Numbered from the stretch's first letter, positions 3,145-33,200 are shown. The stretch is 64,000 bases of DNA from Antedon mediterranea (GCF_964355755.1 NC_092673.1:16216948-16280947); one strand, 5' to 3'. Notes: generated from the letters alone by a model not told the origin. A program made the numbers and translations.

Positions 3145-3264
3145 TATGGTGACACTATATTACATTCATATCTGGGGAATCGTGGATATACAACAACTAT
3201 ACCTACCTTAGAAATAGTGACGTGTCTCATTCAGCATGGGTCACCAGTAGCATTGCAAAATAAG
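3145..3264 (+). CDS. Ankyrin-repeat exon (40 aa)
   Basis: tttccag|YGDTILHSYLGNRGYTTTIPTLEIVTCLIQHGSPVALQNK|gtaatg; fits the GxTPLH...LEIVxxLIxHGA ankyrin consensus. Confidence 0.85.
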
Positions 3265-6200
3265 GTAATGTACAGGGATTTGCTAGTGTAATAAGCTAAC
3301 ATTATATAGATCTGCTGAAGTAAACCATTTAATGAGAGAAAAAAGAAAGCACATTAACAAAAATCAAATTTTTGAATTAGTAATTCGTTTGAACGGATTA
3401 ATAATCTGTTCAAACGAATTAGTAATCCGTTCAAACGAATTGCAACATATACAACAAGTGCCATTTAAAGTATATGTTGTAATTCGTTTAAACGAATTAC
3501 TAATTTGTTTAAACAGATTACTAATTCGTTCAAACGAATTACTAATTCGTTCAAACAGATTAGTAATCCGTTTAAACAAATTATTAATTTGTTTAAACAA
3601 ATTATTAATTTGTTTAAACGGATTACTAATTCGTTTGAACGAATTAGTAATCCGTTTAAACAAATTATTAATTCGTTTAAACAAATTAGTAATCCGTTTA
3701 AACAAATTAGTAATTCGTTTGAACGAATTAGTAATTCGTTTGAACAAATTAGTAATCCGTTTAAACAAATTAGTAATTCGTTTGAACGGATTAGTAATCC
3801 GTTTAAACGAATTACAACATATACTTTAAATGGCACTTGTTGTATATGTTGCAATTCGTTTGAACGGATTACTAATTCGTTTGAACAGATTATTAATCCG
3901 TTCAAACGAATTACTAATTCGTTAGAACGGATTACGTTCGAAAAACATACACTTAAAATGGCATTAATGGGCTTTCGTAACAAACCAACTAAAAAAATAA
4001 CTAAATAGTTATATATGATTTATGATAACTGATTTAAAGTGTACAGTTACCTATCATATAACATAAATCTTTAATTTTCTCAATGAAAAATCTTCATAGT
4101 AACCTACAATAATAATAATATCCTGGATTTATATAGCGCCTAATGTTGTTAAACCTCTAAGCGCTGAACATTTTCCTGATCAAACACCTATGGAAACATT
4201 CTCCCATAACGCAGCTAGTAATAAGCGCAAAGTTGTGTCTTGATCTAACCGGGTTCCCAATTATACACCTGGGTGGAGAGAGGCAAACGTAAAGTAAAGT
4301 ATCTTGCCTAAGGATACAAGCAATGCGGCGAGAGTTGGATTCGAAACTCGATCTCACGATCAGCAGTCCAACGTCCTTACAATGTTGTTAACATTTTTAT
4401 GACCTTAAAACAAATATAAATTGCTCATTATTACTGTATGTACTTTAAGATAACGATTGACAATGGTCTAATTAATTGTAAATATGAAATAAAATGGGAC
4501 ATGCTACATTTGACTATTAATAAACTAACAAATTAAAAAATGTTTATGTTAAAAATAGAATCTGATTTCAATAAAAAAGGATTATTAATTGTTAATAACC
4601 TGCTCCCGCCCTTTACTTACTTTACAATAAAATACTTCTGTAAGTCTTATCACATACAGTATGAATATGGCCTTAAAGAGATCCTTTTCCAAACAAACAT
4701 TTTGCACAAAAGGAAGAGAAATGTAAATAATGTTTAGTTTAGTAAAAATGTTTGAGCAATGCGATTTCAAAAAGAAATTTAATATGAAATTATTCTTTTC
4801 AAACAGTGCCGTATCTTATCTTATGACTTTTTGGAAAAAATGATTCTATTAAAGTTGCCAGTTAAAATTTGATATACTGGTAATTAAGTGCCCACAGATG
4901 GTTCTCGAATACATAAACTTTGGTAAATAACTGAATATTGTCTAAGTCGGTCTGTACACAAAGCAAATAAATATAGATATGATGGAATTTATGTAGTCAA
5001 ATATAATTGTCATCTTGAGAATTACCTTAATTTTGTTTATTGCATGGTATTGTTCACCAAATTCCTGTCTTGGTACATTTGATAATGGGATGGGATCGTC
5101 AATATAGTACACTGGTTTTCATTAGGTGTTAAAAATTAGTACTGAAAGTATTTACCAACTTTCTCTACCATTGGGTAAAAATTCTAAAAGTTGAACTTAA
5201 TTTACAGAAATTTCCCATTACGTAAATTTATATATAAATTCATTAAACTGCTTATTGGCCTCATATTTTTAATATCTCAACATTTGTTTGTACAATTTTA
5301 TGAAATATTTATTTTATAACGTTCAAATTTTGTGATTGCCATTGTACAGTAATTAGATTTTGATGATTACTTACATTAAGTAATAGGCTAACAATCACTA
5401 GATCTGATCCATGGTAATATATTATATTTTGTTTTCATTTATCAATAATGATAATTAGGATTTTATCACATTATTTAGCAGTAATTGTTGTTGTTTGTAT
5501 TAACAAAAAAAAAACCAATTTCACATAATGTCTGTTGTCAGTATTTATAAACTTCATGATTACGATTCCTTTCCAGAATGGGAACACTCCATTACATGAG
5601 TGTCTGTGGCTTGGAGACCCTACCTTAGAAATAGTGACGTGTCTCATTCAGCATGAGGCGCCAGTAGCATTGCAAAATAAGGTAAATGTATAGGGATTTG
5701 CTAGTGTAATAAGCTAACATTCTATAGATCTACTGAAGTAAACCATTTAATGAGAGAAAAAAGTAAGCACATTAACAAAAATCAAATTTGATTAAAACAA
5801 ACCAAATAAAAAATAACTAAATAGTTATATATGATTTATGATAACTGATTTAAAGTGTACAGTTACCTATCATATAACATAAATCTTTAATTTTCTTAAT
5901 GAACAAAAAAATCAATTTTTTTTATATATTCAGTTATTAATTAACAATTATTGACAATGGTCTAATATGAAATAAAATGCGACAACTACTAAACAATTAA
6001 AAATGTTTATGTTAAAAAAATTAATAGAATCTGATTTTAATAAAAAATAATTATTAATTAAAAACCTGCTCCCTCCCTTACCTTACAAAAAATGCTTCTG
6101 TCAGTCTATCCAGCTAATTATGAAAATGGCCTTAAAGAAATCTTTTTCCAACCTAGGGTTCTCACAGATGCTTCTCGAATACATGAACTTTGGTAAATAA

Positions 6201-9200
6201 CTGAAAATTGCACTGGACACCAGGCAAATAAATACAGATATGATGGAATTTATGTAGTCAAATATAATTGTCATCCTGAGAATTACCTTAATTTTGTTTA
6301 TTGCATGGTATTGTTCACCAAATTCCTGTCTTGGTACATTTGATGATGGGATGTTATCAGGTTTCATGATATGATATGATTTTCATCGAGGCAAATGGTT
6401 TAAATTAAATTTGTTATCGTTAATATCTAACTTAGCTTAATTATGATATTGGTTTCATTGGGTGTTAAAATTCAGTACTGAAAGTATGTACCAACTTTCT
6501 CTACCATTGAGTATAAATTCTAGAAGTTGCACTTAATTTACTAAAATTTCCCATTACCTAAATATATATGTAAATTCATTTAACTGCTTATTGGCTTCAT
6601 ATTGTTAACATCTAAACATTTGTTTGTACAATTTTATGAAATATGTATTTTATTAATGTTCAAATTTTGTGATTGATATTGTACAGTAAGTAGATTTTAA
6701 TGATTACTTACATTAAGTAATAGGCTAACAATCACTAGATCTGATCCATGGTAATATATTATATTTTGTTTTCATTTATCAATAATGATAATTAGAATTT
6801 TATCACATTATTTAGCAGTAATTGTTGTTGTTTGTATTTACAAAAAAAAACAATTTCACATAATGTCTGTTTGTCAGTATTTATAAGCTTCATGATTATC
6901 ATTCCTTTCCAGGATGGTAACACTCTATTACATTCATATCTGAGGAGTGGATATCTGAGGCGTGTATATACAACAACTATACTGGTACCTACCTTAGAAA
7001 TAGTGACGTATCTCATAATGTCTGTTGTCAGTATTTATAAACTTCATTATGATTCCTTTCCAGTCTGGTGACACTCTATTACATTCATATCTGAGGAGTG
7101 GAAATACACCTACCTTAGAAATAGTGACGTGTCTCATTCAGCATGGGACACCAGTAGCATTGCAAAATAAGGTAAATGTACAGGAATTTGCTAGTGTAAT
7201 AAGCTAACATTATATAGATCTGCTGAAGTAAACCATTTAATGAGAGAAAAAAGTAAGCACATTAACAAAAATCAAATTTTATTAAAACAAACCAAATAAA
7301 AAAATAACTAAATAGTTATATATGATTTATGATAACTGATTTAAAGTGTACAGTTACCTATCATATAATATAAATCTTTAATTTTCTTAATGAACAATAA
7401 AATCTATTTTTTTTATATATTCAGTTATTAATTAACAATTATTGATAATGGTCTAATTAATTGTAAATATGAAATAAAATGGGACAACTACTAAACAAAA
7501 ATTAATAGAATCTGATTTTAATAAAAAAAAATTATTAATTGATAATGATTATTAATTAATAATGTGCTCCTTCCCTTATCTTACAAAAAAAATTCTTCTG
7601 TCAGTCTATCTAGCTAATTATAAACATGGCCTTAAACTACATCTGGAGATCCTTTTCCAACCTAGGATCTTTTTGTGCAAACATTTTTTGATCTTCATCG
7701 AGGCAAATGATAAATTTGTTTTGATCGTCAATATTCATTCATTCATTCATTCATTCAGGCTTATTGCCTGACTTTATTTACTTTAGGCCTCTGGCCCCTA
7801 GTAATTAATAAAATAATAATTACATTGAAAAATAAAGCAATTTATGGTCACAAGATAAATGAATTAATTAACTTATAAGCATGATAAATATATTTAGATA
7901 GATTATCAATAATTATTGGATCCTGTGATGAAATTAAACGGCAGAATTTAAAAGTATTTGGATTTTCAAAAAATAAAGAAGGTATAAATTTTTTTCTGAT
8001 TTCCTTGTAACGAGAGCAAACTGTAACAAAATGATATTCACCTTCAACTTCATTTATATCACATATTTTACATAACCTATTGTTGCGCTCTATTCTTTTC
8101 CATCTTCCCTTTTCTACCTCTAGTTGAAGTGTGCCCGGTCTTTTAGTTGACTTAAAGCTCGCTTATATCTAGTATCAAGGGTCTGTAGTAAGTATCCATC
8201 TACTCCGAAATTGTTTTTGAACATTTTATAATATCTTAATTTTGAAGAAATATTTATGCTTTCATGAAAGGATTGGCGTTCCATATCGGTTAGCCTTTCT
8301 TTTATTTGATTAATTATATGAAATTTATCAAGGACATTATTTTGTGAAAACCATATGTTTCCATGACCAATAGAGCATAACATATGTTTTACATCGCTTA
8401 CCCAACAATTACTATTATTTTGCGCTTTATGAAGTTGAGATTTATAACATTTCTTCGCATATCTGTCCTCGTTCATATTTACTAGTCTTACCCAATAACG
8501 GATAACATTGAGTACACCTTCGATTGATAAAGAGAATCGTCTACATTCCCCTCTAATTGAAACATTTGTGGCTGATTTCCCGACCCCTAAAACATATCTA
8601 CAGAAATTATTTTGAATATCATCAATTTTGTTGTTGTTTAGTTTTCCCCATATTTCACTACCATACAGTATAATTGGGTTTATTTTAACATCAAATAAGT
8701 TAGTTCCAAATATTCACTAGTAAATGTCCATATTTCTGATATACTATATTTTTGAGTGAGAAAAGTGCTTTATTAGCCTGTGTATTATTTTGTTCTCTGG
8801 CCTTTTCCCAAATTCCTGAACAATCGAAAGTGACTCCAAGATATTTAAGAGATTTTACTATTTCAATTTCTTTACCAAGTTAATTCCACTTTTCGTAGTT
8901 CTTAAGTTTTCCATTTAAAAAAAATACTATTTTACTTTTGTCAATGTTAACTACCAATCCCTACCTATTACAATAATATGCTAATTTATTTAAAAGATCT
9001 TGTAATGAGTACACTGTATCACTGATTAAAACTAGATCATCTGCATACAGTAGGTGATTAATATTTATGTTATCAATTTTTATTTTGTTTCGATTTTCAG
9101 CAGTATGATAACTCAGTTATATCATTAATTATTAAATAATAATGAAGATAAAGGTGACCCTTGTTGTATTCCTACTTCACATTTAAAGGATTCTCCAATT

Positions 9201-12200
9201 TGTTGCCAACCTTTACATGCCCTTTTAATTTACTATACATTGTTTTTATAACTTTGATTATTTTACCTTTTATACCAGATTTTCTTAGTTTACAAGGAAA
9301 TCGTGTCTAATAGAATCGAAAGCGCGTTTTAAATCTATAAACGCCATGTACACAGTTCCTCGTTTTTTTGAGAAATATTTGTTAACAATTGTGTATAAAA
9401 TAAATATGTTATCAATAGTACGACAATCTTTTCTAAACCATCCCTGTTCTTGATGTAATATTTCATTTTCTTCTGTCCATTTGCTTAATCTATTGCTTAT
9501 AATGTATAACAAGCACGAATGTGCAATACTCGGGGTACAGCGAAAGAAGCTGTAATGACGTCATAAGACCGGATGTAACGTCACATACACATCAATAACC
9601 GCGCTACCAAATACGGCTATACGGTACCATCTTCGAGACGTGATATGGCTGCATCCGGTTTGAAATTAAAAAATCCAGCTCTATAGATTTGAGGACATGT
9701 CCCTGTAGTATATTCATGCTAAATCTGAGCTCAATACTACAACGAATAAGGGAGGAGTAGTACTTTATAAATCGCACTTTTTGCTCAATAGTGTCCAGAT
9801 GGAAGAAGAAGAGGAAAAGATGAGAGAGTCCTAGACTCAGGTACCCCGGGTAATAAAACGAGATATACTCTATATCATATTACGTATACAGTATATTTCA
9901 CCATAAAGTTAAAGAAAAATAGGTTTCGTCAGGGCTCGAACCGGGACCTTCTGCGTGTTAAGCAGACTTGACCACCACTACACTACGAAACCTCTTACAC
10001 TAAAAATGTGGGTTACACAAAGTTTTTTTATCCATTTAAATTACAAATAAATATGGTAATAAGCATAAAGCAAAATAAACGTGTGTAAAAGTGATAATTA
10101 CCGATTACACAAAGTAAGTATTTAAAAAAATAATAAAAATAAGATATAGTGTGTATAATTATCATATTGCGTATACAGTACTTTTCACCATATAAAGTTT
10201 AAAAAAAAAACCTTCGTCCGGGCTCGAACCAGGTACCTTCTGCGTGTTAAGCAAACGTGATAACCACTCGCCAAGAAGCCGCATATAACTACATAACGCT
10301 GTGGTGTGTGTCACACATTGTGGCTTCTTAATTGAAAAAATTAATTAACAAAAAAGCACGAATGTGCGATACTCGGGGTGCAGCAAATGAAGCTGTAATG
10401 ACGTCATAAGACGGGATGTGACGTCACATACACATCAATAACCTACCAAATACGGCTATATGGTACCACTCGCCAAGAAGCCGCATATAACTACATAACG
10501 CTGTGGTGTGTGTCACACATTGTGGCTTCTTAATTGAAAAAATTAATTAACAAAAAAGCACGAATGTGCGATACTCGGGGTGCAGCAAATGAAGCTGTAA
10601 TGACGTCATAAGACGGGATGTGACGTCACATACACATCAATAACCTACCAAATACGGCTATATGGTACCATATCCGAGACGTCATATGGCTGCATCCGAT
10701 TTGAAATTTAAAAATCTGTCTCTATAGCTTTGAGGACATGTCCCTGTAGTATATTCATGCCAAATCCCAGCTCAATACTACAACGAATAAGGGAGGAGTA
10801 GTACTTTAAAAATCGCACTTTTTACTCAATAGTGTCCAGATGGAGGAAGAGGAGAAAATGAGTAAGTACTAGACTCGGGTACCCCGAGTAAAAACACCTT
10901 GCCTAAAGTGAATATTAAGGATACGCCACTTTAATTTGCTGGTTGATCTCTTTTACTCTTTTTAAATATAGGAATAATAATGCTTGTTGCCCATTGCTGG
11001 GAAAAATTTCCAGAGGTAAAAATACTATTAAAAATTTTCGTAATTGCGCTAATAGCAGCATTTGGCATACAAGTAAAAAATTCAATTGGGAATCCATCAA
11101 TACCTGGAGCTTTACCCCTTTTCTGTGCTTTAATTGCATAAATTACTTCTTCCCGGCTGATTTCTTCATTGTAACAATCGTTATGTTCGCAATTGTTATC
11201 GTTATCGTCTTCTATATTGATTTCTTGTATATTATTTGTTTGATTTTGGAACATTGTTTTGAAGTAATCATGCCATTTTTTAAGTGTAATGTTTGTCACA
11301 TTTTGTTGTCGTTTGGTTTTAAGGTTTTTCCAAAATATTGTACTGTTATGTTCCTTTATTAACCTGATTAATTTTTGTTGTGATGAATTTTTATGTTTAT
11401 TTTTTTTAAATTTTATTAATTTTTTATAACTCCTTTTCTTTAACAGATATTCATTTAATAGGGTGTTAGTTTTGTATTTTCTATATTTATTAAGAATGCT
11501 ACGAATAATAATTTTCTTTTTTATGCATTGACGATCAAACCATGTATTCTTGGGCAATTTTGTGCATTTTTGTTGTATTTGTGTTTGTTTTTTTGTATTT
11601 ATGTACATTTATAGTACACTGGTTTTCATTAGGTGTTAAAAATCAGTACCGGAAGTATGTACAAACTTTCTCTACCATTGAGTATAAATTCTAGAAGTTG
11701 TACTTAATTTACTAAAATTTCCCATTACCTAAATATATATGTAAATTCATTTAACTGCTTATTGGCTTCATATTGTTAACATCTAAACATTTGTTTGTAC
11801 AATTTTATGAAATATGTATTTTATTAATGTTTACATTTTGTGATTGATATTGTACAGTACGTAGATTTTAATGATTACTTACATTAAGTAATAGGCTAAC
11901 AATCACTAGATCTGATCCATGGTAAGATATTATATTTTGTTTTCATTTATCAATAATGATAATTAGGATTTTATCACATTATTTAGCAGTAATTGTTGTT
12001 GTTTGTATTTACAAAAAAAAACAATTTCACATAATGTCTGTTGTCAGTATTTATAAACGTTCATGATTATGATTTTTTTCCAGGATGGTAACACTCCATT
12101 ACAGTCATATCTGTGGAGTGTATATACACCTACCTTAGAAATAGTTACGTGTCTCATTCAGCATGGGGCACCATTAGCATTGCAAAATAAGGTAAATGTA

Positions 12201-15200
12201 CAGGGATTTGCTAGTGTAATAGGCTAACATTCTATAGATCTGCTGAAGTAAACCCATTAACAAAAATCAAATTTTATTAAAACAAACCAAATAAAAAAAT
12301 AACTAAATAGTTATATATGATTTATGATAACTGATTTAAAATGTAAAGTCTAATTAATTGTAAATATGAAATAAAATTTGACAACTACTAAACAACTAAA
12401 AAATGTTTATGTTAAAAAAATTAATAGAATCTGATTTTAATAAAAAATGATTATTAATTAAAAACCTGCTCCCTCCCTTACCTTACAAAAAATGCTTCTG
12501 TCAGTCTATCCAGCTAATTATGAACATGGCTTTAAAGAAATCCTTTTCCAACCTAGGGTCTTTTTGTGCAAACATTTGCCACAAAATGAAGAGAAATGTA
12601 CACAATGTTTTGTTAGTTTTCAAAATCTAAATTGTTTGAGTAATGCAATTTAAAAAAGAAAAGTAATATGAAATTAGTCTTTTCAAACTGAATGCTTTTA
12701 AGAAAAGTTCCGTCTCTTATCTTATGACTTTTTTGAAAAAATTAATTCTCGTTTTTTTTTTTATTCAGTATATTACACAGAGGCGCCTTACAAAATGGAA
12801 CCATCTTAGCTTCAAGGCGCCTCAGATTAACAAATACAACATTTTAAAACAACTAACAGAAACATCAATTAAATCTTCCAGAATTAACAAGAAATTGTTG
12901 TACATAATAAAATAATAAAGCATTTTCACAATTCGAAAGAAGATCGGAACCAAAAATAAAAATTTCACTTAAAAATGTAAAATTAAATGTTAAAGAAAAA
13001 TCCTTGGCTAAGATATCCTCAATAATTGAGTTAGCGCTTACAAGTAGAATATCTCTTTGTGTATTATAATTAGGGCAGTAACATAAGAAATGAAGCGGAT
13101 TCTCAACATTAAAGCCACAAGTACAATTTGGATTGTCCCGAAGTCCATGTAAGAATAAATGCGAATTGAGACAGCTGAAACCAAGTCGGATTCTAGTGTG
13201 AATTTGGTTAATCTTCTTATCACCTGTATCATAATAAGAACGTTTTTTTGTTTCAAACAAATTGGATTTCAGTAGCAATTTTTTAAACTCAACAAGAAAT
13301 GAGGAATTTTTTATTTCATTATTTAACTCATTCCAATGTGTTATAATAGATGGGACAAAAGATAAACGATATGATGTGGTCTTACAAAATGGAATTATTA
13401 TATTTCGGATGTTACGCAAGTTATAAACTTCAATATTGTCAGAAAAATTAAATAAGAAGTAAAGATACACTGGTGTTAACTTATGAATAATTTTAAAAAA
13501 CAGTATTAGGTTAAGAAATTGTCTACGTTTTTCCAATGATAACCAGCCTAATTCTTATCTTAATGCATTATGACTTGTATGTTTCCACGCACCAGTACAT
13601 ATTCTACCTGCAGAAATCTGGATATTTTCTAGTTCATCACTTAATTTATCTGGGATATTACACCAAACAGGAGCTGCATATTCCATTAATGGTCTAACGT
13701 GTGATATGTAAATGTGACAGAGAGCCTGTCGAGGTAGAATATGTTTGACACGACGTAGCATATTTAAAGATAAAGACGCTTTGTTAATTACAGATTGGAT
13801 ATGGGAATCCCACTTGAGTTTTGCATTAAGCATTAAACCAAGATGCCTATGATCATTTACAAATTGTAGATTTACATTATTGAAATTTAAACTAACATAG
13901 TTATCTAAATGTTTACGTGTAAACAGTATAGCTTTCGTTTTGTTAGCATTGAATGTTACTTTCCATTTTTTTGCCCAATTATAAATGACATTAAGATCAC
14001 CATTTAATTTTTGTTCTGAAATATTACGATCTGTACAAATATCATATAACGAAGTATCATCTGCATATACACTAATATTAGATTTGATATTATCAACCAT
14101 ATCATTTATGAATACAATAAATAAAAATGGACCCAAAACAGATCCTTGGGGTACTCCTGCTGTAATGGTCACCCAATGACTGGTAGTTCCTTCAATAATA
14201 ACACGTTGCTCACGTGAGTTTAAGTAACTTTGGAACCATTTTAGAAGAGTGCCATTAATTCCATATTGATTTAATTTGTATATAATCCCATTATGCCAAA
14301 CTTTATCGAAGGCTTTGGAAATATCCAAAAATACCGAGATTACTTCTTTCCTTAAATCTAAAGCTCTATTAAATGTATCTATAAGATAAAGAAGTTGATA
14401 CGTTGTCGAGTCACCTGGTGTAAAACCAGATTGGAATTGAGTAAGAAGTTTATTATCCACAAAGTATTTATATACTATATCAAAAACTGCACGCTCAAAA
14501 ATTTTTGCAAAGTTGGAAAGTATGGATATAGGGCGGTAGTTCTCAATAAGGGATTTATTGCCTTTTTTATGCAGAGGAATGATATTTGATTTTTTCCATT
14601 CCACAGGAAAATATCCTTGGCTTATGCAGAAGTTATAAAGCTTTGTCAAATGGGGTGCAATAATTTCAGCAGATTCTATTAGTATGATACTGTGAATTTC
14701 ATCAGGTCCCATCGCCTTGTTTTTATCCAGCATAGTTAATAATTTCATGATCTCATCAACAGATAATTTGAGAGTTGAGAGTCTCGATGCAGTTCTATAT
14801 GTGAAGTCCGAAGGAAAATCATCATGATTAGGAATAAACGATTGAGATTTAAAATAATTGTTAAACGCTTTAACTTTCTCACTATTTAAAGTTAGGACAT
14901 CATCGTTTAATTTGATTGGAGGAATCTTATAATATTGTTTGGAATTACAAACTGAATTTATGGTAGACCACCAAGTTTTTGAATCACAGTTTTTATTCAT
15001 TAATAAATCAAATTGTTTATCCAAAAAAGTTTGTTTAGCTTTTCTTATTGCTTTAACAACTTTTGCGCGAATTTTCTTAAAACGTTGCATATGCGAATTT
15101 GAGTTATTTCGAGTGGAATGGGCGCGATTTCTTTTGCGAATAAGAGTTCTAATATGAGCATTAATCCAAGGCTTGTCATTAGGACGCACAGTTATAATTT

Positions 15201-21200: not shown

Positions 21201-24200
21201 GCCTTTTCCCAAATTCCTGAACAATCGAAAGTGACTCCAAGATATTTAAGAGATTTTACTATTTCAATTTCTTTACCAAGTTAATTCCACTTTTCGTAGT
21301 TCTTAAGTTTTCCATTTAAAAAAAATACTATTTTACTTTTGTCAATGTTAACTACCAATCCCTACCTATTACAATAATATGCTAATTTATTTAAAAGATC
21401 TTGTAATGAGTACACTGTATCACTGATTAAAACTAGATCATCTGCATACAGTAGGTGATTAATATTTATGTTATCAATTTTTATTTTGTTTCGATTTTCA
21501 GCAGTATGATAACTCAGTTATATCATTAATTATTAAATAATAATGAAGATAAAGGTGACCCTTGTTGTATTCCTACTTCACATTTAAAGGATTCTCCAAT
21601 TTGTTGCCAACCTTTACATGCCCTTTTAATTTACTATACATTGTTTTTATAACTTTGATTATTTTACCTTTTATACCAGATTTTCTTAGTTTACAAGGAA
21701 ATCGTGTCTAATAGAATCGAAAGCGCGTTTTAAATCTATAAACGCCATGTACACAGTTCCTCGTTTTTTTGAGAAATATTTGTTAACAATTGTGTATAAA
21801 ATAAATATGTTATCAATAGTACGACAATCTTTTCTAAACCATCCCTGTTCTTGATGTAATATTTCATTTTCTTCTGTCCATTTGCTTAATCTATTGCTTA
21901 TAATGTATAACAAGCACGAATGTGCAATACTCGGGGTACAGCGAAAGAAGCTGTAATGACGTCATAAGACCGGATGTAACGTCACATACACATCAATAAC
22001 CGCGCTACCAAATACGGCTATACGGTACCATCTTCGAGACGTGATATGGCTGCATCCGGTTTGAAATTAAAAAATCCAGCTCTATAGATTTGAGGACATG
22101 TCCCTGTAGTATATTCATGCTAAATCTGAGCTCAATACTACAACGAATAAGGGAGGAGTAGTACTTTATAAATCGCACTTTTTGCTCAATAGTGTCCAGA
22201 TGGAAGAAGAAGAGGAAAAGATGAGAGAGTCCTAGACTCAGGTACCCCGGGTAATAAAACGAGATATACTCTATATCATATTACGTATACAGTATATTTC
22301 ACCATAAAGTTAAAGAAAAATAGGTTTCGTCAGGGCTCGAACCGGGACCTTCTGCGTGTTAAGCAGACTTGACCACCACTACACTACGAAACCTCTTACA
22401 CTAAAAATGTGGGTTACACAAAGTTTTTTTATCCATTTAAATTACAAATAAATATGGTAATAAGCATAAAGCAAAATAAACGTGTGTAAAAGTGATAATT
22501 ACCGATTACACAAAGTAAGTATTTAAAAAAATAATAAAAATAAGATATAGTGTGTATAATTATCATATTGCGTATACAGTACTTTTCACCATATAAAGTT
22601 TAAAAAAAAAACCTTCGTCCGGGCTCGAACCAGGTACCTTCTGCGTGTTAAGCAAACGTGATAACCACTCGCCAAGAAGCCGCATATAACTACATAACGC
22701 TGTGGTGTGTGTCACACATTGTGGCTTCTTAATTGAAAAAATTAATTAACAAAAAAGCACGAATGTGCGATACTCGGGGTGCAGCAAATGAAGCTGTAAT
22801 GACGTCATAAGACGGGATGTGACGTCACATACACATCAATAACCTACCAAATACGGCTATATGGTACCACTCGCCAAGAAGCCGCATATAACTACATAAC
22901 GCTGTGGTGTGTGTCACACATTGTGGCTTCTTAATTGAAAAAATTAATTAACAAAAAAGCACGAATGTGCGATACTCGGGGTGCAGCAAATGAAGCTGTA
23001 ATGACGTCATAAGACGGGATGTGACGTCACATACACATCAATAACCTACCAAATACGGCTATATGGTACCATATCCGAGACGTCATATGGCTGCATCCGA
23101 TTTGAAATTTAAAAATCTGTCTCTATAGCTTTGAGGACATGTCCCTGTAGTATATTCATGCCAAATCCCAGCTCAATACTACAACGAATAAGGGAGGAGT
23201 AGTACTTTAAAAATCGCACTTTTTACTCAATAGTGTCCAGATGGAGGAAGAGGAGAAAATGAGTAAGTACTAGACTCGGGTACCCCGAGTAAAAACACCT
23301 TGCCTAAAGTGAATATTAAGGATACGCCACTATAATTTGCTGGTTGATCTCTTTTACTCTTTTTAAATATAGGAATAATAATGCTTGTTGCCCATTGCTG
23401 GGAAAAATTTCCAGAGGTAAAAATACTATTAAAAATTTTCGTAATTGCGCTAATAGCAGCATTTGGCATACAAGTAAAAAATTCAATTGGGAATCCATCA
23501 ATACCTGGAGCTTTACCCCTTTTCTGTGCTTTAATTGCATAAATTACTTCTTCCCGGCTGATTTCTTCATTGTAACAATCGTTATGTTCGCAATTGTTAT
23601 CGTTATCGTCTTCTATATTGATTTCTTGTATATTATTTGTTTGATTTTGGAACATTGTTTTGAAGTAATCATGCCATTTTTTAAGTGTAATGTTTGTCAC
23701 ATTTTGTTGTCGTTTGGTTTTAAGGTTTTTCCAAAATATTGTACTGTTATGTTCCTTTATTAACCTGATTAATTTTTGTTGTGATGAATTTTTATGTTTA
23801 TTTTTTTTAAATTTTATTAATTTTTTATAACTCCTTTTCTTTAACAGATATTCATTTAATAGGGTGTTAGTTTTGTATTTTCTATATTTATTAAGAATGC
23901 TACGAATAATAATTTTCTTTTTTATGCATTGACGATCAAACCATGTATTCTTGGGCAATTTTGTGCATTTTTGTTGTATTTGTGTTTGTTTTTTTGTATT
24001 TATGTACATTTATAGTACACTGGTTTTCATTAGGTGTTAAAAATCAGTACCGGAAGTATGTACAAACTTTCTCTACCATTGAGTATAAATTCTAGAAGTT
24101 GCACTTAATTTACTAAAATTTCCCATTACCTAAATTTATATGTAAATTCATTTAACTGCTTATTGGTCTCATATTGTTAACATCTAAACATTTGTTTGTA

Positions 24201-27200
24201 CAATTTTATGAAATATGTATTTTATTAATGTTTACATTTTGTGATTGATATTGTACAGTACGTAGATTTTAATGATTACTTACATTAAGTAATAGGCTAA
24301 CAATCACTAGATCTGATCCATGGTAAGATATTATATTTTGTTTTCATTTATCAATAATGATAATTAGGATTTTATCACATTATTTAGCAGTAATTGTTGT
24401 TGTTTGTATTTACAAAAAAAAACAATTTCACATAATGTCTGTTGTCAGTATTTATAAACGTTCATGATTATGATTTTTTTCCAGGATGGTAACACTCCAT
24501 TACAGTCATATCTGTGGAGTGTATATACACCTACCTTAGAAATAGTTACGTGTCTCATTCAGCATGGGGCACCATTAGCATTGCAAAATAAGGTAAATGT
24601 ACAGGGATTTGCTAGTGTAATAGGCTAACATTCTATAGATCTGCTGAAGTAAACCCATTAACAAAAATCAAATTTTATTAAAACAAACCAAATAAAAAAA
24701 TAACTAAATAGTTATATATGATTTATGATAACTGATTTAAAATGTAAAGTCTAATTAATTGTAAATATGAAATAAAATTTGACAACTACTAAACAACTAA
24801 AAAATGTTTATGTTAAAAAAATTAATAGAATCTGATTTTAATAAAAAATGATTATTAATTAAAAACCTGCTCCCTCCCTTACCTTACAAAAAATGCTTCT
24901 GTCAGTCTATCCAGCTAATTATGAACATGGCTTTAAAGAAATCCTTTTCCAACCTAGGGTCTTTTTGTGCAAACATTTGCCACAAAATGAAGAGAAATGT
25001 ACACAATGTTTTGTTAGTTTTCAAAATCTAAATTGTTTGAGTAATGCAATTTAAAAAAGAAAAGTAATATGAAATTAGTCTTTTCAAACTGAATGCTTTT
25101 AAGAAAAGTTCCGTCTCTTATCTTATGACTTTTTTGAAAAAATTAATTCTCGTTTTTTTTTTATTCAGTATATTACACAGAGGCGCCTTACAAAATGGAA
25201 CCATCTTAGCTTCAAGGCGCCTCAGATTAACAAATACAACATTTTAAAACAACTAACAGAAACATCAATTAAATCTTCCAGAATTAACAAGAAATTGTTG
25301 TACATAATAAAATAATAAAGCATTTTCACAATTCGAAAGAAGATCGGAACCAAAAATAAAAATTTCACTTAAAAATGTTAAATTAAATGTTAAAGAAAAA
25401 TCCTTGGCTAAGATATCCTCAATAATTGAGTTAGCGCTTACAAGTAGAATATCTCTTTGTGTATTATAATTAGGGCAGTAACATAAGAAATGAAGCGGAT
25501 TCTCAACATTAAAGCCACAAGTACAATTTGGATTGTCCCGAAGTCCATGTAAGAATAAATGCGAATTGAGACAGCTGAAACCAAGTCGGATTCTAGTGTG
25601 AATTTGGTTAATCTTCTTATCACCTGTATCATAATAAGAACGTTTTTTTGTTTCAAACAAATTGGATTTCAGTAGCAATTTTTTAAACTCAACAAGAAAT
25701 GAGGAATTTTTTATTTCATTATTTAACTCATTCCAATGTGTTATAATAGATGGGACAAAAGATAAACGATATGATGTGGTCTTACAAAATGGAATTATTA
25801 TATTTCGGATGTTACGCAAGTTATAAACTTCAATATTGTCAGAAAAATTAAATAAGAAGTAAAGATACACTGGTGTTAACTTATGAATAATTTTAAAAAA
25901 CAGTATTAGGTTAAGAAATTGTCTACGTTTTTCCAATGATAACCAGCCTAATTCTTGTCTTAATGCATTATGACTTGTATGTTTCCACGCACCAGTACAT
26001 ATTCTACCTGCAGAAATCTGGATATTTTCTAGTTCATCACTTAATTTATCTGGGATATTACACCAAACAGGAGCTGCATATTCCATTAATGGTCTAACGT
26101 GTGATATGTAAATGTGACAGAGAGCCTGTCGAGGTAGAATATGTTTGACACGACGTAGCATATTTAAAGATAAAGACGCTTTGTTAATTACAGATTGGAT
26201 ATGGGAATCCCACTTGAGTTTTGCATTAAGCATTAAACCAAGATGCCTATGATCATTTACAAATTGTAGATTTACATTATTGAAATTTAAACTAACATAG
26301 TTATCTAAATGTTTACGTGTAAACAGTATAGCTTTCGTTTTGTTAGCATTGAATGTTACTTTCCATTTTTTTGCCCAATTATAAATGACATTAAGATCAC
26401 CATTTAATTTTTGTTCTGAAATATTACGATCTGTACAAATATCATATAACGAAGTATCATCTGCATATACACTAATATTAGATTTGATATTATCAACCAT
26501 ATCATTTATGAATACAATAAATAAAAATGGACCCAAAACAGATCCTTGGGGTACTCCTGCTGTAATGGTCACCCAATGACTGGTAGTTCCTTCAATAATA
26601 ACACGTTGCTCACGTGAGTTTAAGTAACTTTGGAACCATTTTAGAAGAGTGCCATTAATTCCATATTGATTTAATTTGTATATAATCCCATTATGCCAAA
26701 CTTTATCGAAGGCTTTGGAAATATCCAAAAATACCGAGATTACTTCTTTCCTTAAATCTAAAGCTCTATTAAATGTATCTATAAGATAAAGAAGTTGATA
26801 CGTTGTCGAGTCACCTGGTGTAAAACCAGATTGGAATTGAGTAAGAAGTTTATTATCCACAAAGTATTTATATACTATATCAAAAACTGCACGCTCAAAA
26901 ATTTTTGCAAAGTTGGAAAGTATGGATATAGGGCGGTAGTTCTCAATAAGGGATTTATTGCCTTTTTTATGCAGAGGAATGACATTTGATTTTTTCCATT
27001 CCACAGGAAAATATCCTTGGCTTATGCAGAAGTTATAAAGCTTTGTCAAATGGGGTGCAATAATTTCAGCAGATTCTATTAGTATGATACTGTGAATTTC
27101 ATCAGGTCCCATCGCCTTGTTTTTATCCAGCATAGTTAATAATTTCATGATCTCATCAACAGATAATTTGAGAGTTGAGAGTCTCGATGCAGTTCTATAT

Positions 27201-30200
27201 GTGAAGTCCGAAGGAAAATCATCATGATTAGGAATAAACGATTGAGATTTAAAATAATTGTTAAACGCTTTAACTTTCTCACTATTTAAAGTTAGGACAT
27301 CATCGTTTAATTTGATTGGAGGAATCTTATAATATTGTTTGGAATTACAAACTGAATTTATGGTAGACCACCAAGTTTTTGAATCACAGTTTTTATTCAT
27401 TAATAAATCAAATTGTTTATCCAAAAAAGTTTGTTTAGCTTTTCTTATTGCTTTAACAACTTTTGCGCGAATTTTCTTAAAACGTTGCATTTGCGAATTT
27501 GAGTTATTTCGAGTGGAATGGGCGCGATTTCTTTTGCGAATAAGAGTTCTAATATGAGCATTAATCCAAGGCTTGTCATTAGGACGCACAGTTATAATTT
27601 TAGATATAATATAGTTATCAACACAATTATTAAATAAGTCAATCCAATTATGACAAACATCTTCAACCTTTGAAGATGAATAAACTTCTTCCCAATTTAC
27701 AGAATTAAGAGCATTACGATATAAATTAAAATCAGTTTTTTCAAAAAGATATATTTTACGATTGTATGGCTTGTCCCGTGTGATACGAATATCAATATTT
27801 GCATATACTGGACTGTGATCACAATTTAAAAGTGGGCACAATGCACCAAAATCATTAATATATACATTTTGACTAGTAACTATATGGTCAATACAAGACC
27901 GTTGGTCTTTTATACAACGTGTTGGCATATTGATGTGTTGAGTTAAACCGTTTTGTTGTAAAAATTCGTAAAATGATTTTCCAAATCTATTTGTGTTTCC
28001 ATCATTGTACCAGTTGTTATTTTGAGCATTCATATCGCCCATCATTAAAGTTAAGCTGTGTCGAGACAAAACAAAGTTATTAGTACTGTTTTGAAAATAG
28101 TCAAGTAGATCCTGATCAGATTGAACATCACTTTGTGGTGGCCTATAACATACATAAGTCAAAATCGTCCAGTTTGAAACTTGTATTTCACACCTTATCA
28201 CATCTGAGATCATTACAAATATGGGAATTAACTAAGTGTATAGAATTAGATATGTAAAAAGCACATCTGCCGCCATGGCGGTTTCTATCATTTCTAATAG
28301 GTTCTCTTGATAACCGTCTAGTAAAATGTCATGGTTCAAGATAGTTTGATCTAGCCATGTTTCTGTTAAAGCAATAATATCATAGTTATTTAAATTTGCT
28401 AGGTGTTGAATTTCAGCTAGTTTACCTGGAACGATTAGACTACGTATGTTAATATGGCAAACTGTAAACTGTTCCGGACCAGGATTTGGATGTATATCGC
28501 CGCACATTAAAAGCATGCACATTAGAACATTATTACGCCCCAAATTTATGATAAATAAATTATCCATTATCAGTAAAAAAAATAAGTAAAGTACTCACTT
28601 TAAAAACGCTAGCACATATGAGAACACTTAGCCAAACGAACATAGTAAACATTGAAATAAAAACAAGAGAACACGTTTTTGCTATCTAAAATCAACAAAT
28701 AATGGTCAAATTCCGTCGGTAAGAAACGTACTGTTAATGACACCGCACAGTCTAAACGTTCTTAATGTTCAGCAATCAGTCGTTCAAAATCATTTTCATT
28801 CTTGATATGCTTGGGTTTTTCTTCACCTTTACACAGGGCCCATATCTTGCATCTGTTAGTCCAGGCACGTTGAACTCCATCATGGTGTCTTACCTTCCAA
28901 AAGAGATTGAAATTTGCTTTTGTTAGGTCTTCCGAGATATAAACCGGCATACCCTTCAGTTTGGATTTGGCTGCAAACACATTGTTACGGGTCCTGATTG
29001 AATTGAACCGAACAATTATTGGCCTAGGCTTGTCAGTAATAGGACCGATTCGATGAGATACTTCAATATCGTCGGACTTGAAAGTGATACCCATTTTGTC
29101 GCGAATAATTCTCGTTAAAATATAATATACTAGTAAGTGCTCACAGATGCTTCTCGAATACATGAACTTTGGTAAATAACTGAAAATTGCACTGTACACA
29201 AAGCAATACAGATATGATGGAATTTATGTATTCAAATATAATTGTCATCCTGAGAATTACCTTAATTTTGTTTATTGCATGGTATTGTTCACCAAATTCC
29301 TGTCTTGGTACATTTGATGATGGGATGGTACTGTATCAGGCTTCATGATATGATATGATCTTCATCGAGGCAAATGATAAATTTGTTTTGATCGTCAATA
29401 TTCATTCATTCATTCATGATGGCTTATCGCCTGACTATTTACTTTAGGCCTCTGGCCCCTAGTAATTAATAAAATAATAATTACATTGAAAAATAAAGCA
29501 ATTTATGGTCACAAGATAAATGAATTAATTAATTTCGTTCTCTAAGCAAAACATATATCTTAACTTATAAGCATGATAAATATATTTAGATAGATTATCA
29601 ATAATTATTGGATCCTGTGATGATATTAAACGGCAGAATTTAAAAGTATTTGGATTTTCAAAAAATAAAGAAGGTATAAATATTTTTCTGATTTCCTTGT
29701 AACGAGAGCAAACTGTAACAAAATGATATTCATCTTCAACTTCGTTTTTATCACATATTTTACATAACCTATTTCTGCGTTCTATTCTTTTCCAGTACAG
29801 TAAGTAGATAACCATAATAAATGCACCCGCTCCCAAAGTAATAATGACTTATCTATTCCATTATGGAATAACTCTCAGGGTAAAAGAACTTTTGTTTATA
29901 GATCAACTAAATTATGGAATTCTCTACCAAATAACACAAAATCAGAACTGCATAATATGTCTTTGGCAACTTTTAAATCTTCACTATAGAAAACATATAT
30001 GTATTAACCTTTTTGCCTTCACAATTGTAAATAGTTTTATATCTGTTTTCTTTCCTTTTGTTTTTCTTTTTATTTTATTTTTGTTGTAAATATGTTTACT
30101 GAACCACTTTGGAAATCAGTACATTTGTATTGAAAGTGTATTTCAGTTTAAAGAAAGAAGAAATAAATAAATAGATTTTAATGATTACTTACATTAAAGT

Positions 30201-33200
30201 AATAGGCTAACAATCACTAGATCTGATCCATGGTAAGATATTATATTTTGTTTTCATTTATCAATAATGATAATTAGGATTTTATCACATTATTTAGCAG
30301 TAATTGTTGTTGTTTATATTAACAAAAAAAAACAATTTCACATAATGTCTGTTGTCAGTATTTATAAACATTCATGATTATGATTCCTTTCCAGTATGGT
30401 GACACTCCATTACATTCATATTTGAAGAGAACTGCACCTACCTTAGAAATAGTGACGTGTCTCGATCAGCATGGGGCACCAGTAGGATTGCAAAATAAGG
30501 TAATGTACAGGGATTTGCTAGTGTAATAGGCTAACATTCTATACATCTGATGTGGTAAACCATTCTATTTTGTTCTGGTTTACCACATTATTTAGCAGTA
30601 ATTTTTACTGTATTGTCTCATATTATGGTATATCTGCAGCATTGCAAAATAGGGTAATGTAGGCTTACAAAGAATTGTCAGGACAATTTCACATTTTATT
30701 GTTATCATGAGTATTTATAAACTTCAACTTCAGTATCAATTAGCCTCCATATTAATCAATAGTATTACTACCTCAAAGAGTAGTATTATTTAATCACACT
30801 TACAGATATAGAATTCTAAAGTGTTTGATTTTGTTCACATTTTTCTCTTTTTACGCATAGCACATTCTAACAAGTTTGTTTTGATTTAGATATTCATTTA
30901 TAAGTCAACTATAATTGTAATGTTTTGTTGTTGTTTTAATATTTCATTTGTATCTGGATAGTATCCAAATATTATTTTCTTTGAAAGTTTATAGTAAAAC
31001 TATTTGTTGTTTTATATTATGGCTCAAACATTTTAACACATCTACCTACTGTTCCAAAGTAAACTTTTATTCAATTTATCTCTCTCTCTCTCTCCTCCAT
31101 CTTTCAATGTTGAAGGCGGTAGACTATAAACGGCAGCGCTCAAGTTTTGGTTTGGATACAGGAGTTATAGGTGGCGCACTGTACAAATTGATGTCATTTA
31201 TTGGCAAATAGTAATTTCTATTCACGTCCTAATTTACAACCAATGTTAAAAAATAGTAAATGTACGTGTTATCACATGATGCTCTTTCATCCAATCTCTA
31301 GATGGTAAATGTTTGAGCCATGACATAATACTGTATGTATGTGATGTGTAATTAAAGTGTGTTATATTGTATATCAATAATTTCTCAAAACTACTAATAA
31401 CTAAACCCATTTTTTTAATAGGATGGAAATACACTTGTCTCTCTTTTAGAAAGTAACAGGCGGATAGAGAGGGAAAGAAAAACTGAAATTTTAAACTTCT
31501 TAGAAGGTAAGTGAAGTTTTAATTATTGAAATTTTAGGATCAACTAGTTTCATTGCAAACGATAAAGATTTGATTTCTCATCAAGTGAAGAAGAATGTCC
31601 AGATAAAGAAAATTAACATTTATGATATATCATTCACAGGTTTATTATAGATTAAATAATTCAGTGGGATAGTAGTATACATGGAAGTTGTGATATGTTG
31701 CAAGATGTAAATTATTTTGCTATTAATACGATAAAAATAACACAAAAATGCACACTTTAAAATTCCTTTGAAATAAAAATATTAAATAAATCATTTTTCA
31801 AATCAAATCAATCTCTTTATTCAATACATCAAAACAGTACACATAACAAAAATAAAGAGATTTTAATGATGATGATGATGATTTTAAGATGAAAGGGACC
31901 TTCAATAAACCTCAAGGGGCTTTTGATAGGAGGCTTTACTTTAAACTAGTTACAATAATCGGATGGGGGATATGCATTGTTAAGGAATATTTAAACTTTA
32001 TTAATTGCACATAAATGTAAAATGTAGATTTTTTTTTTAAATGTAATCTATTTTATATATAATACTATGTACAATTGGTATTCGCATTCAAGGCAAACAA
32101 TTTACGATAGGAGGAGATAAATATTGAATATAAAAATCTAATTTTCTTGTTAAATCCCAGTTTTTGTTTCCACAATGGATGAATTTCCTTCACACATTTT
32201 AAATAATAATTCGTCTTCTTCGAGGAGCTGAATCACCGGATTTTCAGCGCGCCGTGCGTACCAGGTTACTACCGAAAATGATGGCGCTTAATTAAAAGTT
32301 CTTAGTAGATATACAGTAGCTCTATATCTATTAGCCTTAAAAGTTATCCCCTTAATAGCTCTATTACCTATTAAGCACTTCCTAATAGGTTTTACCTCAT
32401 TAGCATAATTCAAAACCCCTACTAATAGTGTTAGATAGATTTTTCACTATTTTCAATCTGTGAGTAACACAGTTGTATGCATCTATCTATTGTCTACTAT
32501 AATAGCAATACCAAGGGCTACCAGCAACCTATTAATATACATAAACAAACTGATAATAGCCAGTAACTTTTAATAAGCTATCTATTTTATACAATAGATA
32601 GATATGGACTACCAGATAGCTATTAGAAATCTATGAGTATCATATCTATCTATCTACTGTCTACTTATTATAGCTATACAAGACTACCAATGACCTATCA
32701 ATGGACTATAAAGAAACTGATAATAGTCAGTTAAATATTAATCAACTATCTATTTTATAGCTGGGAAGTAGTCGTTCCATCATTGACTCATTGAGTTAAA
32801 ATCCTTAGTAGGCGAGATAAAAAGGTCTACTAAAAAACTACTAAAAATAGAGCTATTTCTACTTAAGTCTACTTAAATCTACTAATTTTTTTACTATGGG
32901 TAAAACCAATAGACAAATTCAAACTCCTCCTTCCCACATTCGCATTCGAGGCAAACAATTTACGATAGGAGGAGATAAATATTGAATATAAAAATAAAAC
33001 ATTTTCTTGTTAATCCCATTTTTGTTTCCACAATGAATGAATTTTCTTCACACATTTTTAAGCCGCTTAAGAATACTATTTTTCTGTATGTAAAATTAAG
33101 CATCCCATAAAGCATAACCAAGCTCTACCAAGTGTATAAAGAACAGTGCCCTTATTGTAGGCCTTTAAAAATGCAATTCCATGTCTATATTGGCAAAATT

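What the first reader, a model, noticed from the sequence alone, without database searches (positions are those of the whole stretch)
3145..30499. Natural DARPin-like cassette: one ankyrin repeat per phase-0 exon, fixed scaffold, hypervariable binding face
Seen: the last 21 codons (PTLEIVTCLIQHGxPVALQNK) and the introns are nearly constant. Variation concentrates at residue 1 (Y/N/S/D), residue 3 (D/N), residue 5 (I/P/L) and the segment after TxLH, which differs in sequence and length through in-frame indels: SYLGNRGYTTTI, ECLWLGD, SYLRSGNT, SYLWSVYT, SYLKRTA, and SYLRSGYLRRVYTTTILV in the truncated copy. Established: the beta-turn and inner helix form the ankyrin target-binding surface and are the positions randomised in DARPins; exon-per-repeat diversification is known for LRR/TPR immune candidates in Ectocarpus. 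Inference: diversifying selection on a recognition surface. The symmetric exons also allow in-frame skipping and combinatorial isoforms.
Basis: partly seen in the sequence, partly recalled or inferred. Interest (0 to 1): 0.82.

Follow-up and report, generated by a model that had tools for sequence, protein, structure and literature searches.

The report
Feather-star ankyrin-cassette self-cleaving death sensor
A feather-star gene carries a row of near-identical one-repeat ankyrin exons that differ mainly at their predicted binding face, and a predicted splice path joins them to a likely self-cleaving ZU5-UPA unit and likely death-effector domains, so it is likely a fast-diversifying intracellular immune sensor.

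Summary
Observation confirmed, with corrections. Ten phase-0 ankyrin exons (8 intact, 2 truncated) lie at 3145-30499. A 12.4-kb tandem duplication (0.17% substitutions) leaves only 6 distinct variable halves; its breakpoint lies inside an exon and made a chimeric repeat. The first 12 codons differ at 20% of sites, against 5.6% in the last 21 codons and 2.4% in the upstream intron. Selection is likely but not proven: omega 4.9 (p=0.001) with a shared mutation rate, 2.5 (p=0.15) with a free one.

Eight downstream exons join the array in one open 819-codon frame: C-cap, linkers, ZU5 with a PIDD-type HFS self-cleavage motif, UPA, and likely tandem DEDs. The source is a crinoid (exon 1 matches an Antedon mediterranea RefSeq model 100%). 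Paralogs put the same cassette on ROC-COR-DED; no ROC-COR was found in this window. One probable RNA run shows ankyrin-to-ankyrin splice joints in the family; exon skipping is untested.

The scan found this cassette three times before in the same genome, on ROCO genes. The ZU5-UPA-DED wiring is the new part. Best reading: a PIDD/CARD8-like sensor with a germline-diversified ankyrin face.

The parts
3145..3264 (+). ANK exon E1 (40 aa, longest intact loop)
   Evidence: 100% identical to residues 70-109 of RefSeq model P0010
5577..5681 (+). ANK exon E2 (35 aa); its 3' half is the left edge of the 12.4-kb duplication
   Evidence: Pfam Ank 26.4 bits, above cut-off
6913..7016 (+). truncated ANK exon E3t: acceptor, no donor, fused to the intron end in front of E4; reading from its acceptor to E4's donor is out of frame and hits a stop
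7064..7171 (+). ANK exon E4 (36 aa)
   Evidence: family exon-to-exon joints laid here in run X5 (table 5c)
12084..12191 (+). ANK exon E5 (36 aa)
17978..18082 (+). chimeric ANK exon E6: 5' half as E10 (1 difference in 36 nt), 3' half and downstream intron as E2 (0 differences)
19314..19417 (+). truncated ANK exon E7t (duplicate of E3t)
19465..19572 (+). ANK exon E8 (identical to E4)
24485..24592 (+). ANK exon E9 (identical to E5)
30395..30499 (+). ANK exon E10 (35 aa)
5619..30463 (.). 12.4-kb tandem duplication (5619-18046 / 18020-30463); crossover within a 27-nt stretch identical in E2 and E10
31422..31506 (+). C-cap exon (phase 0 to 1)
   Evidence: 28 of 28 aa identical to the cap of ANK-ROC paralog P0011
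33781..33873 (+). linker exon L1 (phase 1-1), shared by ANK-ROC paralog P0011 and ZU5 paralog P0005
43571..43648 (+). linker exon L2 (phase 1-1)
   Evidence: 89% to P0005
44581..45092 (+). ZU5 and start of UPA exon; HFS motif at 44952-44960; about 6-aa in-frame deletion relative to paralogs
   Evidence: Pfam ZU5 E=3e-19; UNC5B alignment
45429..45563 (+). UPA-region exon 2
46117..46258 (+). UPA-region exon 3
46703..46732 (+). 30-nt linker exon (phase 1-1)
   Evidence: like the stretch after UPA in P0013
47721..48236 (+). likely tandem death-effector-domain exon; the terminal exon after it was not located
   Evidence: top 11 structural matches are all DED proteins, Z 5.9-7.3, on a low-confidence model; Pfam DED below cut-off in paralogs

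Best explanation
The exons are the ankyrin-repeat region of one predicted crinoid gene, N-cap-(ANK)n-C-cap-ZU5-UPA-tandem DED, that likely acts as an intracellular non-self sensor: ligand binding to the variable ankyrin face would release or cluster a likely self-cleaved UPA-DED fragment that would recruit a caspase-8-like protease. Shown in the sequence: the exon array, the open 819-codon splice path, ZU5 with HFS, the intra-exon crossover, and the excess of amino-acid change at 5' codons. Diversity likely arises in the germ line in two ways. Unequal crossover between exon-intron units homogenises introns and the 3' half and changes repeat number and order (captured in E6). Selection likely keeps point changes at positions 3, 5, 10, 13 and 14 and in-frame indels in the helix-turn-helix. 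The gene likely derives from the crinoid ANK-ROC-COR-DED family by loss or swap of ROC-COR at a phase-1 junction. Inferred only: whole-gene splicing, autoproteolysis, ligand, caspase recruitment and immune role.
For: Sixteen exons join with AG/GT ends and matching phases into 819 codons with no stop. The C-cap and L1 match ANK-ROC paralog P0011, and L1-L2-ZU5-UPA-DED match paralog P0005. RefSeq model P0010 supplies the upstream N-cap and ATG and folds as an ankyrin stack (pLDDT 94.6, TM about 0.8 to DARPins). Exon-end-to-exon-start joints are listed for run X5 only, 1 of 4 runs. With a shared mutation rate, omega is 4.9 (5') against 0.77 (3'), p=0.0014 against omega=1. Among shown family-wide contig variants, 0 of 13 rows are synonymous in the first 12 codons against 5 of 15 in the 3' half, p=0.044. 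The same positions vary in arrays P0014 and P0020 with their own scaffolds. The F of HFS aligns to UNC5B Leu677 (by my residue count), the site of CARD8's scissile Phe296; PIDD cleaves at HF/S (PMC3210808 passages). F-[S/T/C] is kept in 10 of 10 paralogous ZU5 copies and H in 9 of 10; S, T and C are the three residues that can start the acyl shift. The top 11 fold matches of the last exon are DED proteins. Nearest atlas clusters for P0005 are ZU5-UPA-Death and FIIND proteins (a lead only).
Against: With its own rate for the 5' half, omega is 2.5 and not significant (p=0.15); synonymous against non-synonymous counts within the 5' half give p=0.09-0.22. The star-tree model ignores recombination and uses 5 units. 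The 3' half shows pN/pS about 1 and several framework changes. Two truncated exons offer a competing out-of-frame acceptor. ZU5 has a 6-aa deletion. RefSeq ends P0010 at E2, and no model matching this ZU5 exon exactly was returned among proteins of 299-2000 aa. No joint from E10 to the C-cap or from the C-cap onward was among the joints shown (15 shown, 140 hidden). X5 is only guessed to be RNA, covers introns too, and at least some of its joints come from paralogs. The DED model is weak (pLDDT 60, Z under 8). In one search, 26 variant rows were hidden and loop rows can be alignment artefacts. No immune data exist for this gene.
Confidence: 0.55

Rival explanations
1. A decaying paralog. The array is real, but this copy drifts under relaxed selection. 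The 5' half looks hypervariable because slippage raises its mutation rate or because conversion tracts homogenise everything except the already divergent part.
For: Free-rate model p=0.15 with a 3.1-fold 5' rate. pN/pS about 1 in the 3' half and framework changes. Truncated exons, a 6-aa ZU5 deletion and several transposon insertions. Short direct repeats in the loop.
Against: The frame stays open over 16 exons and all loop indels are in frame. The 5' changes fall on codon positions 1 and 2 (16 of 20 in the window; 12 of 13 shown rows family-wide). The same positions vary in two other arrays.
Confidence: 0.2
2. The protein is a variable recognition module for something other than pathogens (allorecognition, gamete or symbiont recognition, transposon products), or an UNC5CL-like signalling adaptor.
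For: No expression or challenge data were found. The closest named relatives by structure are UNC5CL and UNC5. Fungal NLRs with such repeats are mostly known from allorecognition (PMC13449251 passages).
Against: Tandem DED-like effector, lineage-specific expansion with module swapping and surface-biased change are the usual marks of conflict genes. Conserved adaptors do not show these.
Confidence: 0.13
3. The ankyrin array and the ZU5-UPA-DED exons belong to separate transcripts (a short ANK-only gene as in RefSeq P0010, and a ZU5 gene like P0005), and/or the 12.4-kb duplication is an assembly artefact.
For: RefSeq splits such loci into ANK-only and ZU5-only models. No locus-specific long-range joint was seen. 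The duplicate copies are 99.8% alike, and the best run holds only 0.72 of the sampled words.
Against: Phases match throughout, and the C-cap-L1 join is present in P0011 and L1-L2-ZU5 in P0005. P0010 ends inside E2 with residues not found at the exon's end. The duplication junction sits in 27 nt of exon homology, as unequal crossover predicts, and the copies differ by 21 substitutions and 7 indels.
Confidence: 0.12

Closest known systems
Brown-algal exon-shuffling LRR-ROCO and NB-ARC-TPR candidate receptors (PMC3341825, PMC11378527; passages read)
   Same: One repeat per exon, inactivated exons inside introns, repeat-number turnover, variation on the predicted binding face; paralogs of this gene are ROCO proteins.
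   Different: Ankyrin instead of LRR or TPR; phase 0 (algal LRR exons are phase 2 per PMC11378527); length-variable loop; animal host; this locus has ZU5-UPA-DED and no ROC-COR; alternative splicing is shown in algae and untested here.
PIDD1, UNC5CL and the FIIND proteins CARD8 and NLRP1 (PMC3210808, PMC7883297; passages read)
   Same: Sensor region, ZU5 with HF/S-type motif at the same structural position, UPA, C-terminal death-fold domain.
   Different: The sensor is a near-identical, variable ankyrin array, not LRR or a disordered region; one ZU5 (PIDD has two); likely tandem DED, not DD or CARD; multigene family; cleavage untested.
Fungal NLRs with highly conserved ANK repeats (PMC4986451; passages read)
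   Same: Ankyrin repeats with high internal identity, repeat-number change, and selected sites on the inner helix and beta-hairpin.
   Different: No NACHT or NB-ARC domain; the repeats are N-terminal and each lies on its own exon; the effector is C-terminal.
DARPins (PMC9611651, PMC3308923, PMC8229355; passages read; exact randomised positions recalled and consistent with the DARPin alignment)
   Same: N-cap, internal modules, C-cap; variation at positions 3, 5, 13, 14 and 10.
   Different: Positions 2, 26 and 33 are constant in the window; repeats are 35-40 aa with indels in the inter-helix turn; some framework positions vary; binding is untested.
Canonical ankyrins ANK1-3 (architecture recalled; PDB hits)
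   Same: ANK repeats followed by ZU5 and UPA and a death-fold domain.
   Different: Single ZU5 closer to UNC5B than to ankyrin (E 3e-7 against 2e-4); near-identical cassette repeats; likely DEDs; lineage-specific family.

Membership tests
Ankyrin repeat | profile match and helix-turn-helix-hairpin stack | tested here: met
   Pfam Ank on 6 of 6 exons tested (1 above cut-off, E 7.5e-6 to 0.03); P0010 above cut-off; model pLDDT 94.6 and TM about 0.8 to ankyrin structures
DARPin-like diversified scaffold | variation at library positions 2, 3, 5, 13, 14, 33 (26) on a fixed framework | tested here: inconclusive
   3, 5, 13, 14 vary; 2, 26, 33 are constant; framework position 7 and the inter-helix turn also vary. 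Position list recalled; numbering fits PMC3308923 passages
DARPin-like diversified scaffold | different repeat sets bind different targets | not testable with these tools
   no binding data
ROCO proteins | ROC-COR tandem | tested here: not met
   tblastn with 5 ROC- or COR-bearing paralogs found no ROC/COR match on the gene's strand in the window; paralogs P0014, P0011, P0019, P0020 carry ANK plus Roc
PIDD/UNC5CL/FIIND-type autoproteolytic proteins | ZU5 followed by UPA | tested here: met
   Pfam ZU5 E=3e-19; alignment runs into UNC5B UPA; Pfam UPA E=6.5e-5, under cut-off, in paralog P0006; atlas structure rows for P0005
PIDD/UNC5CL/FIIND-type autoproteolytic proteins | HF/S or SF/S motif at the end of ZU5 | tested here: met
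   HFS at 44952-44960, F aligned to UNC5B Leu677; F-[S/T/C] in 10 of 10 paralogous copies
PIDD/UNC5CL/FIIND-type autoproteolytic proteins | actual self-cleavage | not testable with these tools
   needs expression and a mutant control
PIDD1 orthology | LRR sensor, two ZU5 domains, death domain | tested here: not met
   ANK sensor, one ZU5, DED-like end
Tandem-DED proteins (caspase-8, FLIP type) | two DED folds in tandem | tested here: inconclusive
   top 11 matches are all DED proteins but Z 5.9-7.3 and model pLDDT 60; no Pfam DED on this exon, sub-threshold DED in 6 of 9 paralogs
Exon-shuffling candidate immune receptors (Ectocarpus type) | one repeat per symmetric exon, with inactivated exons in introns | tested here: met
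Exon-shuffling candidate immune receptors (Ectocarpus type) | diversifying selection on binding-face codons | tested here: inconclusive
   p=0.0014 with shared rate, p=0.15 with free rate; family-wide bias p=0.044 on shown rows
Exon-shuffling candidate immune receptors (Ectocarpus type) | alternative splicing of repeat exons | not testable with these tools
   only short contigs were available; joints show adjacent-type splicing, not skipping
NLR | NACHT or NB-ARC domain | tested here: not met
   the predicted splice path runs from C-cap and linkers straight to ZU5; no such Pfam hit on the window ORFs or paralogs scanned

The most novel reading that the evidence does not exclude
Feather stars have a modular repertoire of natural-DARPin sensors. 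A swappable, crossover-diversified (and perhaps alternatively spliced) ankyrin cassette is plugged into either a ROCO GTPase switch or, as here, a self-cleaving ZU5-UPA-tandem-DED unit that seeds caspase-8 filaments. That would be an invertebrate counterpart of NLRP1/CARD8 and PIDD with variable, antibody-like recognition.
Probability: 0.3. Interest if true: 0.85.

Novelty: new variant of a known kind. Interest (0 to 1): 0.6.

Why it matters
If true, it extends exon-per-repeat receptor diversification, described in brown algae (LRR, TPR) and paralleled in fungal NLRs, to ankyrin repeats in a deuterostome animal. It also couples that variable face to a PIDD/CARD8-like cleavage-and-death-fold output. 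How invertebrates diversify intracellular recognition is an open question, and this locus makes it testable: a small soluble protein, a defined cleavage site, and a captured crossover that shows how repeat order changes. The natural loop indels mark a binding element that standard DARPin libraries do not vary. No paper on this crinoid family turned up in my searches, which cover open-access text only.

Tried and rejected
No whole genome is held for this window, so family size and the upstream N-cap exon could not be read directly; the N-cap is taken from RefSeq model P0010. The run search listed no holder on record as RNA. Laying X5, X6, X8 and X9 on 30100-37050 showed intron cover in all four and no E10-to-C-cap or C-cap-to-L1 joint among the 15 joints shown of 155; this is no evidence either way. 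Summed contig depth is much higher over the ANK exon than over unique flanks, and 206 contigs of X1 lie on a 221-nt exon stretch. I use this only as a hint of many copies, since depth is no copy number. Higher exon than intron depth in X5 was likewise not used as a measure of expression. The minus-strand reading at 1-2244 was considered as a head-to-head partner gene and rejected as more likely a DNA-transposon remnant, since its ATG frame stops early (family assignment recalled). Canonical ankyrin, PIDD1 orthology, ROCO and NLR membership were rejected for this locus (membership table). Protein searches returned only Antedon mediterranea models as close relatives (top HMM hits); this does not show absence in other crinoids. 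A search of earlier findings by the ZU5 sequence, by place (near) and by words gave nothing. No complex prediction was run because no partner is known. PMC8048499 (passages) gave nothing usable. No supplementary files were read; the source-data tables of PMC8195603 could list crinoid architectures like this one.
Full report
Setting. The window is 31% GC animal DNA. Exon E1 is 100% identical over 40 aa to RefSeq model XP_071948736.1 of the feather star Antedon mediterranea (P0010), and all close relatives of the ZU5 exon carry the same species name. No whole genome is held.

Observation. A motif scan found ten ankyrin-like exons on the + strand. Eight are intact with AG/GT ends and phase 0 on both sides (105, 108 or 120 nt). 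Two are truncated, with an acceptor and no donor. Pfam Ank matched 6 of 6 exons tested, one above cut-off. The count is inflated by a tandem duplication: 5619-18046 and 18020-30463 align over 12,418 bases with 21 substitutions and 7 indels. E8 equals E4 and E9 equals E5. The breakpoint lies in 27 nt that are identical in E2 and E10, right after the variable part. E6 is therefore a chimera: it differs from E10 by 1 of 36 nt in the 5' part, and from E2 by 0 of 63 in the 3' part and 0 of 60 in the downstream intron. This is what unequal crossover between two cassette exons leaves behind. It adds three intact repeats and new neighbours without breaking the frame. I could not confirm the junction with reads.

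How variable, and why. Among distinct units, pairwise difference is 0.202 in the first 12 codons (6 units), 0.056 in the last 21 codons (5 units), 0.024 in about 210 nt of upstream intron and 0.065 in about 61 nt of downstream intron. Variable sites are 16 of 36 against 11 of 210 (p=7e-9), and 17 of 36 against 8 of 63 (p=2e-4). In the 5' part pN is 0.23 and pS 0.12; at positions 3, 5, 13 and 14, pN is 0.39 and pS 0.03 on only 2 synonymous sites; at framework positions pN/pS is 0.79. A codon model on a star tree of 5 intact units gives omega 4.9 (5') and 0.77 (3') with one mutation rate (p=0.0014 against omega=1). It gives 2.5 and p=0.15 if the 5' part has its own rate. The window alone therefore cannot separate selection from a locally raised rate or older divergence. 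Two outside lines favour selection. First, contig variants of four runs laid on E4: of the 38 exon rows shown (26 rows of the table hidden), 0 of 13 in the first 12 codons are synonymous against 5 of 15 in the last 21 codons (p=0.044). Second, two paralogous arrays with their own scaffolds (P0014, 8 repeats; P0020, 5 repeats parsed) vary at positions 3, 5, 10, 13 and 14 and are fixed at 4, 6, 8, 9, 11 and 12. Against a 'fixed scaffold': the 3' half has pN/pS 1.05 and some drastic framework changes.

Where the variation sits. P0010 (N-cap, an upstream E2-like repeat, E1, most of E2) folds with pLDDT 94.6 and matches ankyrin and DARPin structures at TM about 0.8. Exon residues 1 and 3 fall in the beta-hairpin; 8, 11 and 12 on or at the end of the inner helix. 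These correspond to DARPin positions 3, 5, 10, 13, 14. The six standard library positions are recalled; PMC9611651 passages confirm six X positions plus one Z, and PMC3308923 passages place position 10 toward the binding surface and 26 and 33 outside it. Positions 2, 26 and 33 are constant here. The in-frame indels lie between inner and outer helix (residues 80-90 of the model, pLDDT about 80), which standard libraries do not vary. I had secondary structure only, not coordinates, so the surface assignment rests on alignment.

The rest of the gene. Eight further exons (31422-48236) join E1-E10 with matching phases into 819 codons without a stop: C-cap, linkers L1 and L2, ZU5 (Pfam E=3e-19), three UPA-region exons, a 30-nt linker and a 172-codon helical exon. 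That last exon gave a weak model (pLDDT 60) whose top 11 structural matches are all DED proteins (vFLIP, caspase-8, PEA-15, FADD; Z 5.9-7.3). The ZU5 ends in HFS (44952-44960). Its Phe aligns with UNC5B Leu677 by my count of the alignment, the position of the scissile Phe296 of CARD8; PIDD cleaves at HF/S, and S, T or C can act as nucleophile (PMC3210808 passages). Ten of ten paralogous ZU5 copies keep F-[S/T/C], switching among exactly those three residues. Caveats: this ZU5 lacks about 6 aa found in paralogs, the terminal exon was not found, and the E3t/E7t acceptors must be skipped because their use is out of frame.

Family. An HMM of six exons against 1.84 billion proteins gave 111 hits; the 4 best, and 7 of the top 10, are Antedon models. 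P0014 is ANK-ROC-COR-DED; P0011, P0019 and P0020 are ANK plus Roc; P0004 is ROC-COR-DED-ZU5 followed by a region like this gene's last exon. The C-cap exon is identical to that of P0011 and linker L1 is shared by P0011 (followed by ROC) and P0005 (followed by L2-ZU5). No ROC or COR match was found on the gene's strand in the window. The gene is thus likely a ROC-COR-less derivative or module swap at a phase-1 junction.

Splicing. On E4, run X5 (guessed RNA) has contigs that run from the exon end straight into an exon start (7171/7172 to 7066, depth about 31 each), and loose ends reading into a next ankyrin exon; such joints are listed for none of X1, X8 or X10. This supports splicing of cassette exons in the family at 80% likeness. 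It does not show this locus in particular, skipping, or the link to ZU5.

Mechanism. Most likely, a cytosolic precursor cleaves itself at F/S and the halves stay together, as reported for CARD8 and PIDD. Ligand binding at the ankyrin face would free or cluster UPA-DED, which would recruit a caspase-8-like protease. Crossover changes repeat number and order, and selection renews the contact residues. All steps after the gene structure are inferred.

Comparison and novelty. It works like algal exon-shuffling ROCO receptors in how it diversifies (PMC3341825, PMC11378527 passages), like fungal ANK-NLRs in repeat type (PMC4986451 passages), and like PIDD1/CARD8 in predicted output. It is a member of none of these by defining domains. 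PMC8195603 passages describe expansions of death-fold proteins with variable ankyrin or ZU5-UPA parts in marine invertebrates, so the general theme is known. PMC5100051 passages call concerted repeat evolution rare in animals. Searches listed no paper on this crinoid family. The scan itself reported three ANK-cassette ROCO loci 0.2-1.4 Mb further along the same genome (unreviewed notes, read after I had reached the ROCO link). None of those notes, as shown, mentions ZU5-UPA.

Verdict. The feature is real and well above chance. It is a new variant of a known kind. The cassette is no longer unique to this window; the self-cleaving ZU5-UPA-DED output and the captured crossover are what this locus adds. 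Interest 0.6.

Noticed in passing
window 37088-43220 (- strand): LTR retrotransposon in the intron between L1 and L2: two identical 450-bp LTRs, a SCAN-domain gag ORF and a 1214-aa pol ORF with integrase upstream of reverse transcriptase. That order is recalled as typical of Gmr1-like gypsy elements; identical LTRs point to a very recent insertion.
   Followed up: partly
window 12865-16801 and 25265-29223 (- strand): A LINE-type endonuclease-reverse transcriptase element was duplicated with the 12.4-kb unit; one copy has a 988-codon open frame and the other is interrupted.
   Followed up: partly
window 3375-3935: Palindromic array of 21-bp units (about 560 bp, arms about 91% complementary) in the intron after E1, likely a non-autonomous DNA transposon or foldback element.
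   Followed up: no
window 1-2244 (- strand): Spliced, stop-interrupted reading with a TTAA-flanked end near 2244, likely a DNA transposon remnant (Kolobok-like by recalled end motif) lying in the intron upstream of E1.
   Followed up: partly
window 30611-30652: Degenerate remnant of an ANK exon 3' end with a donor-like GT just after E10, a further dead cassette fragment.
   Followed up: no
window 47260-47400: Array of 18-bp units, similar in translation to the GVSSGTG linker of paralog P0013; it may be a further exon or several microexons left out of my model.
   Followed up: no
window 48865-52944: Large foldback element with about 1.3-kb inverted arms and internal tandem repeats just downstream of the DED exon.
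   Followed up: no
proteins P0001-P0009, P0013, P0014, P0134-P0138: Crinoid paralogs mix ANK, ROC-COR, ZU5-UPA and DED-like blocks in many orders, with the residue after HF switching among Ser, Thr and Cys.
   Followed up: partly
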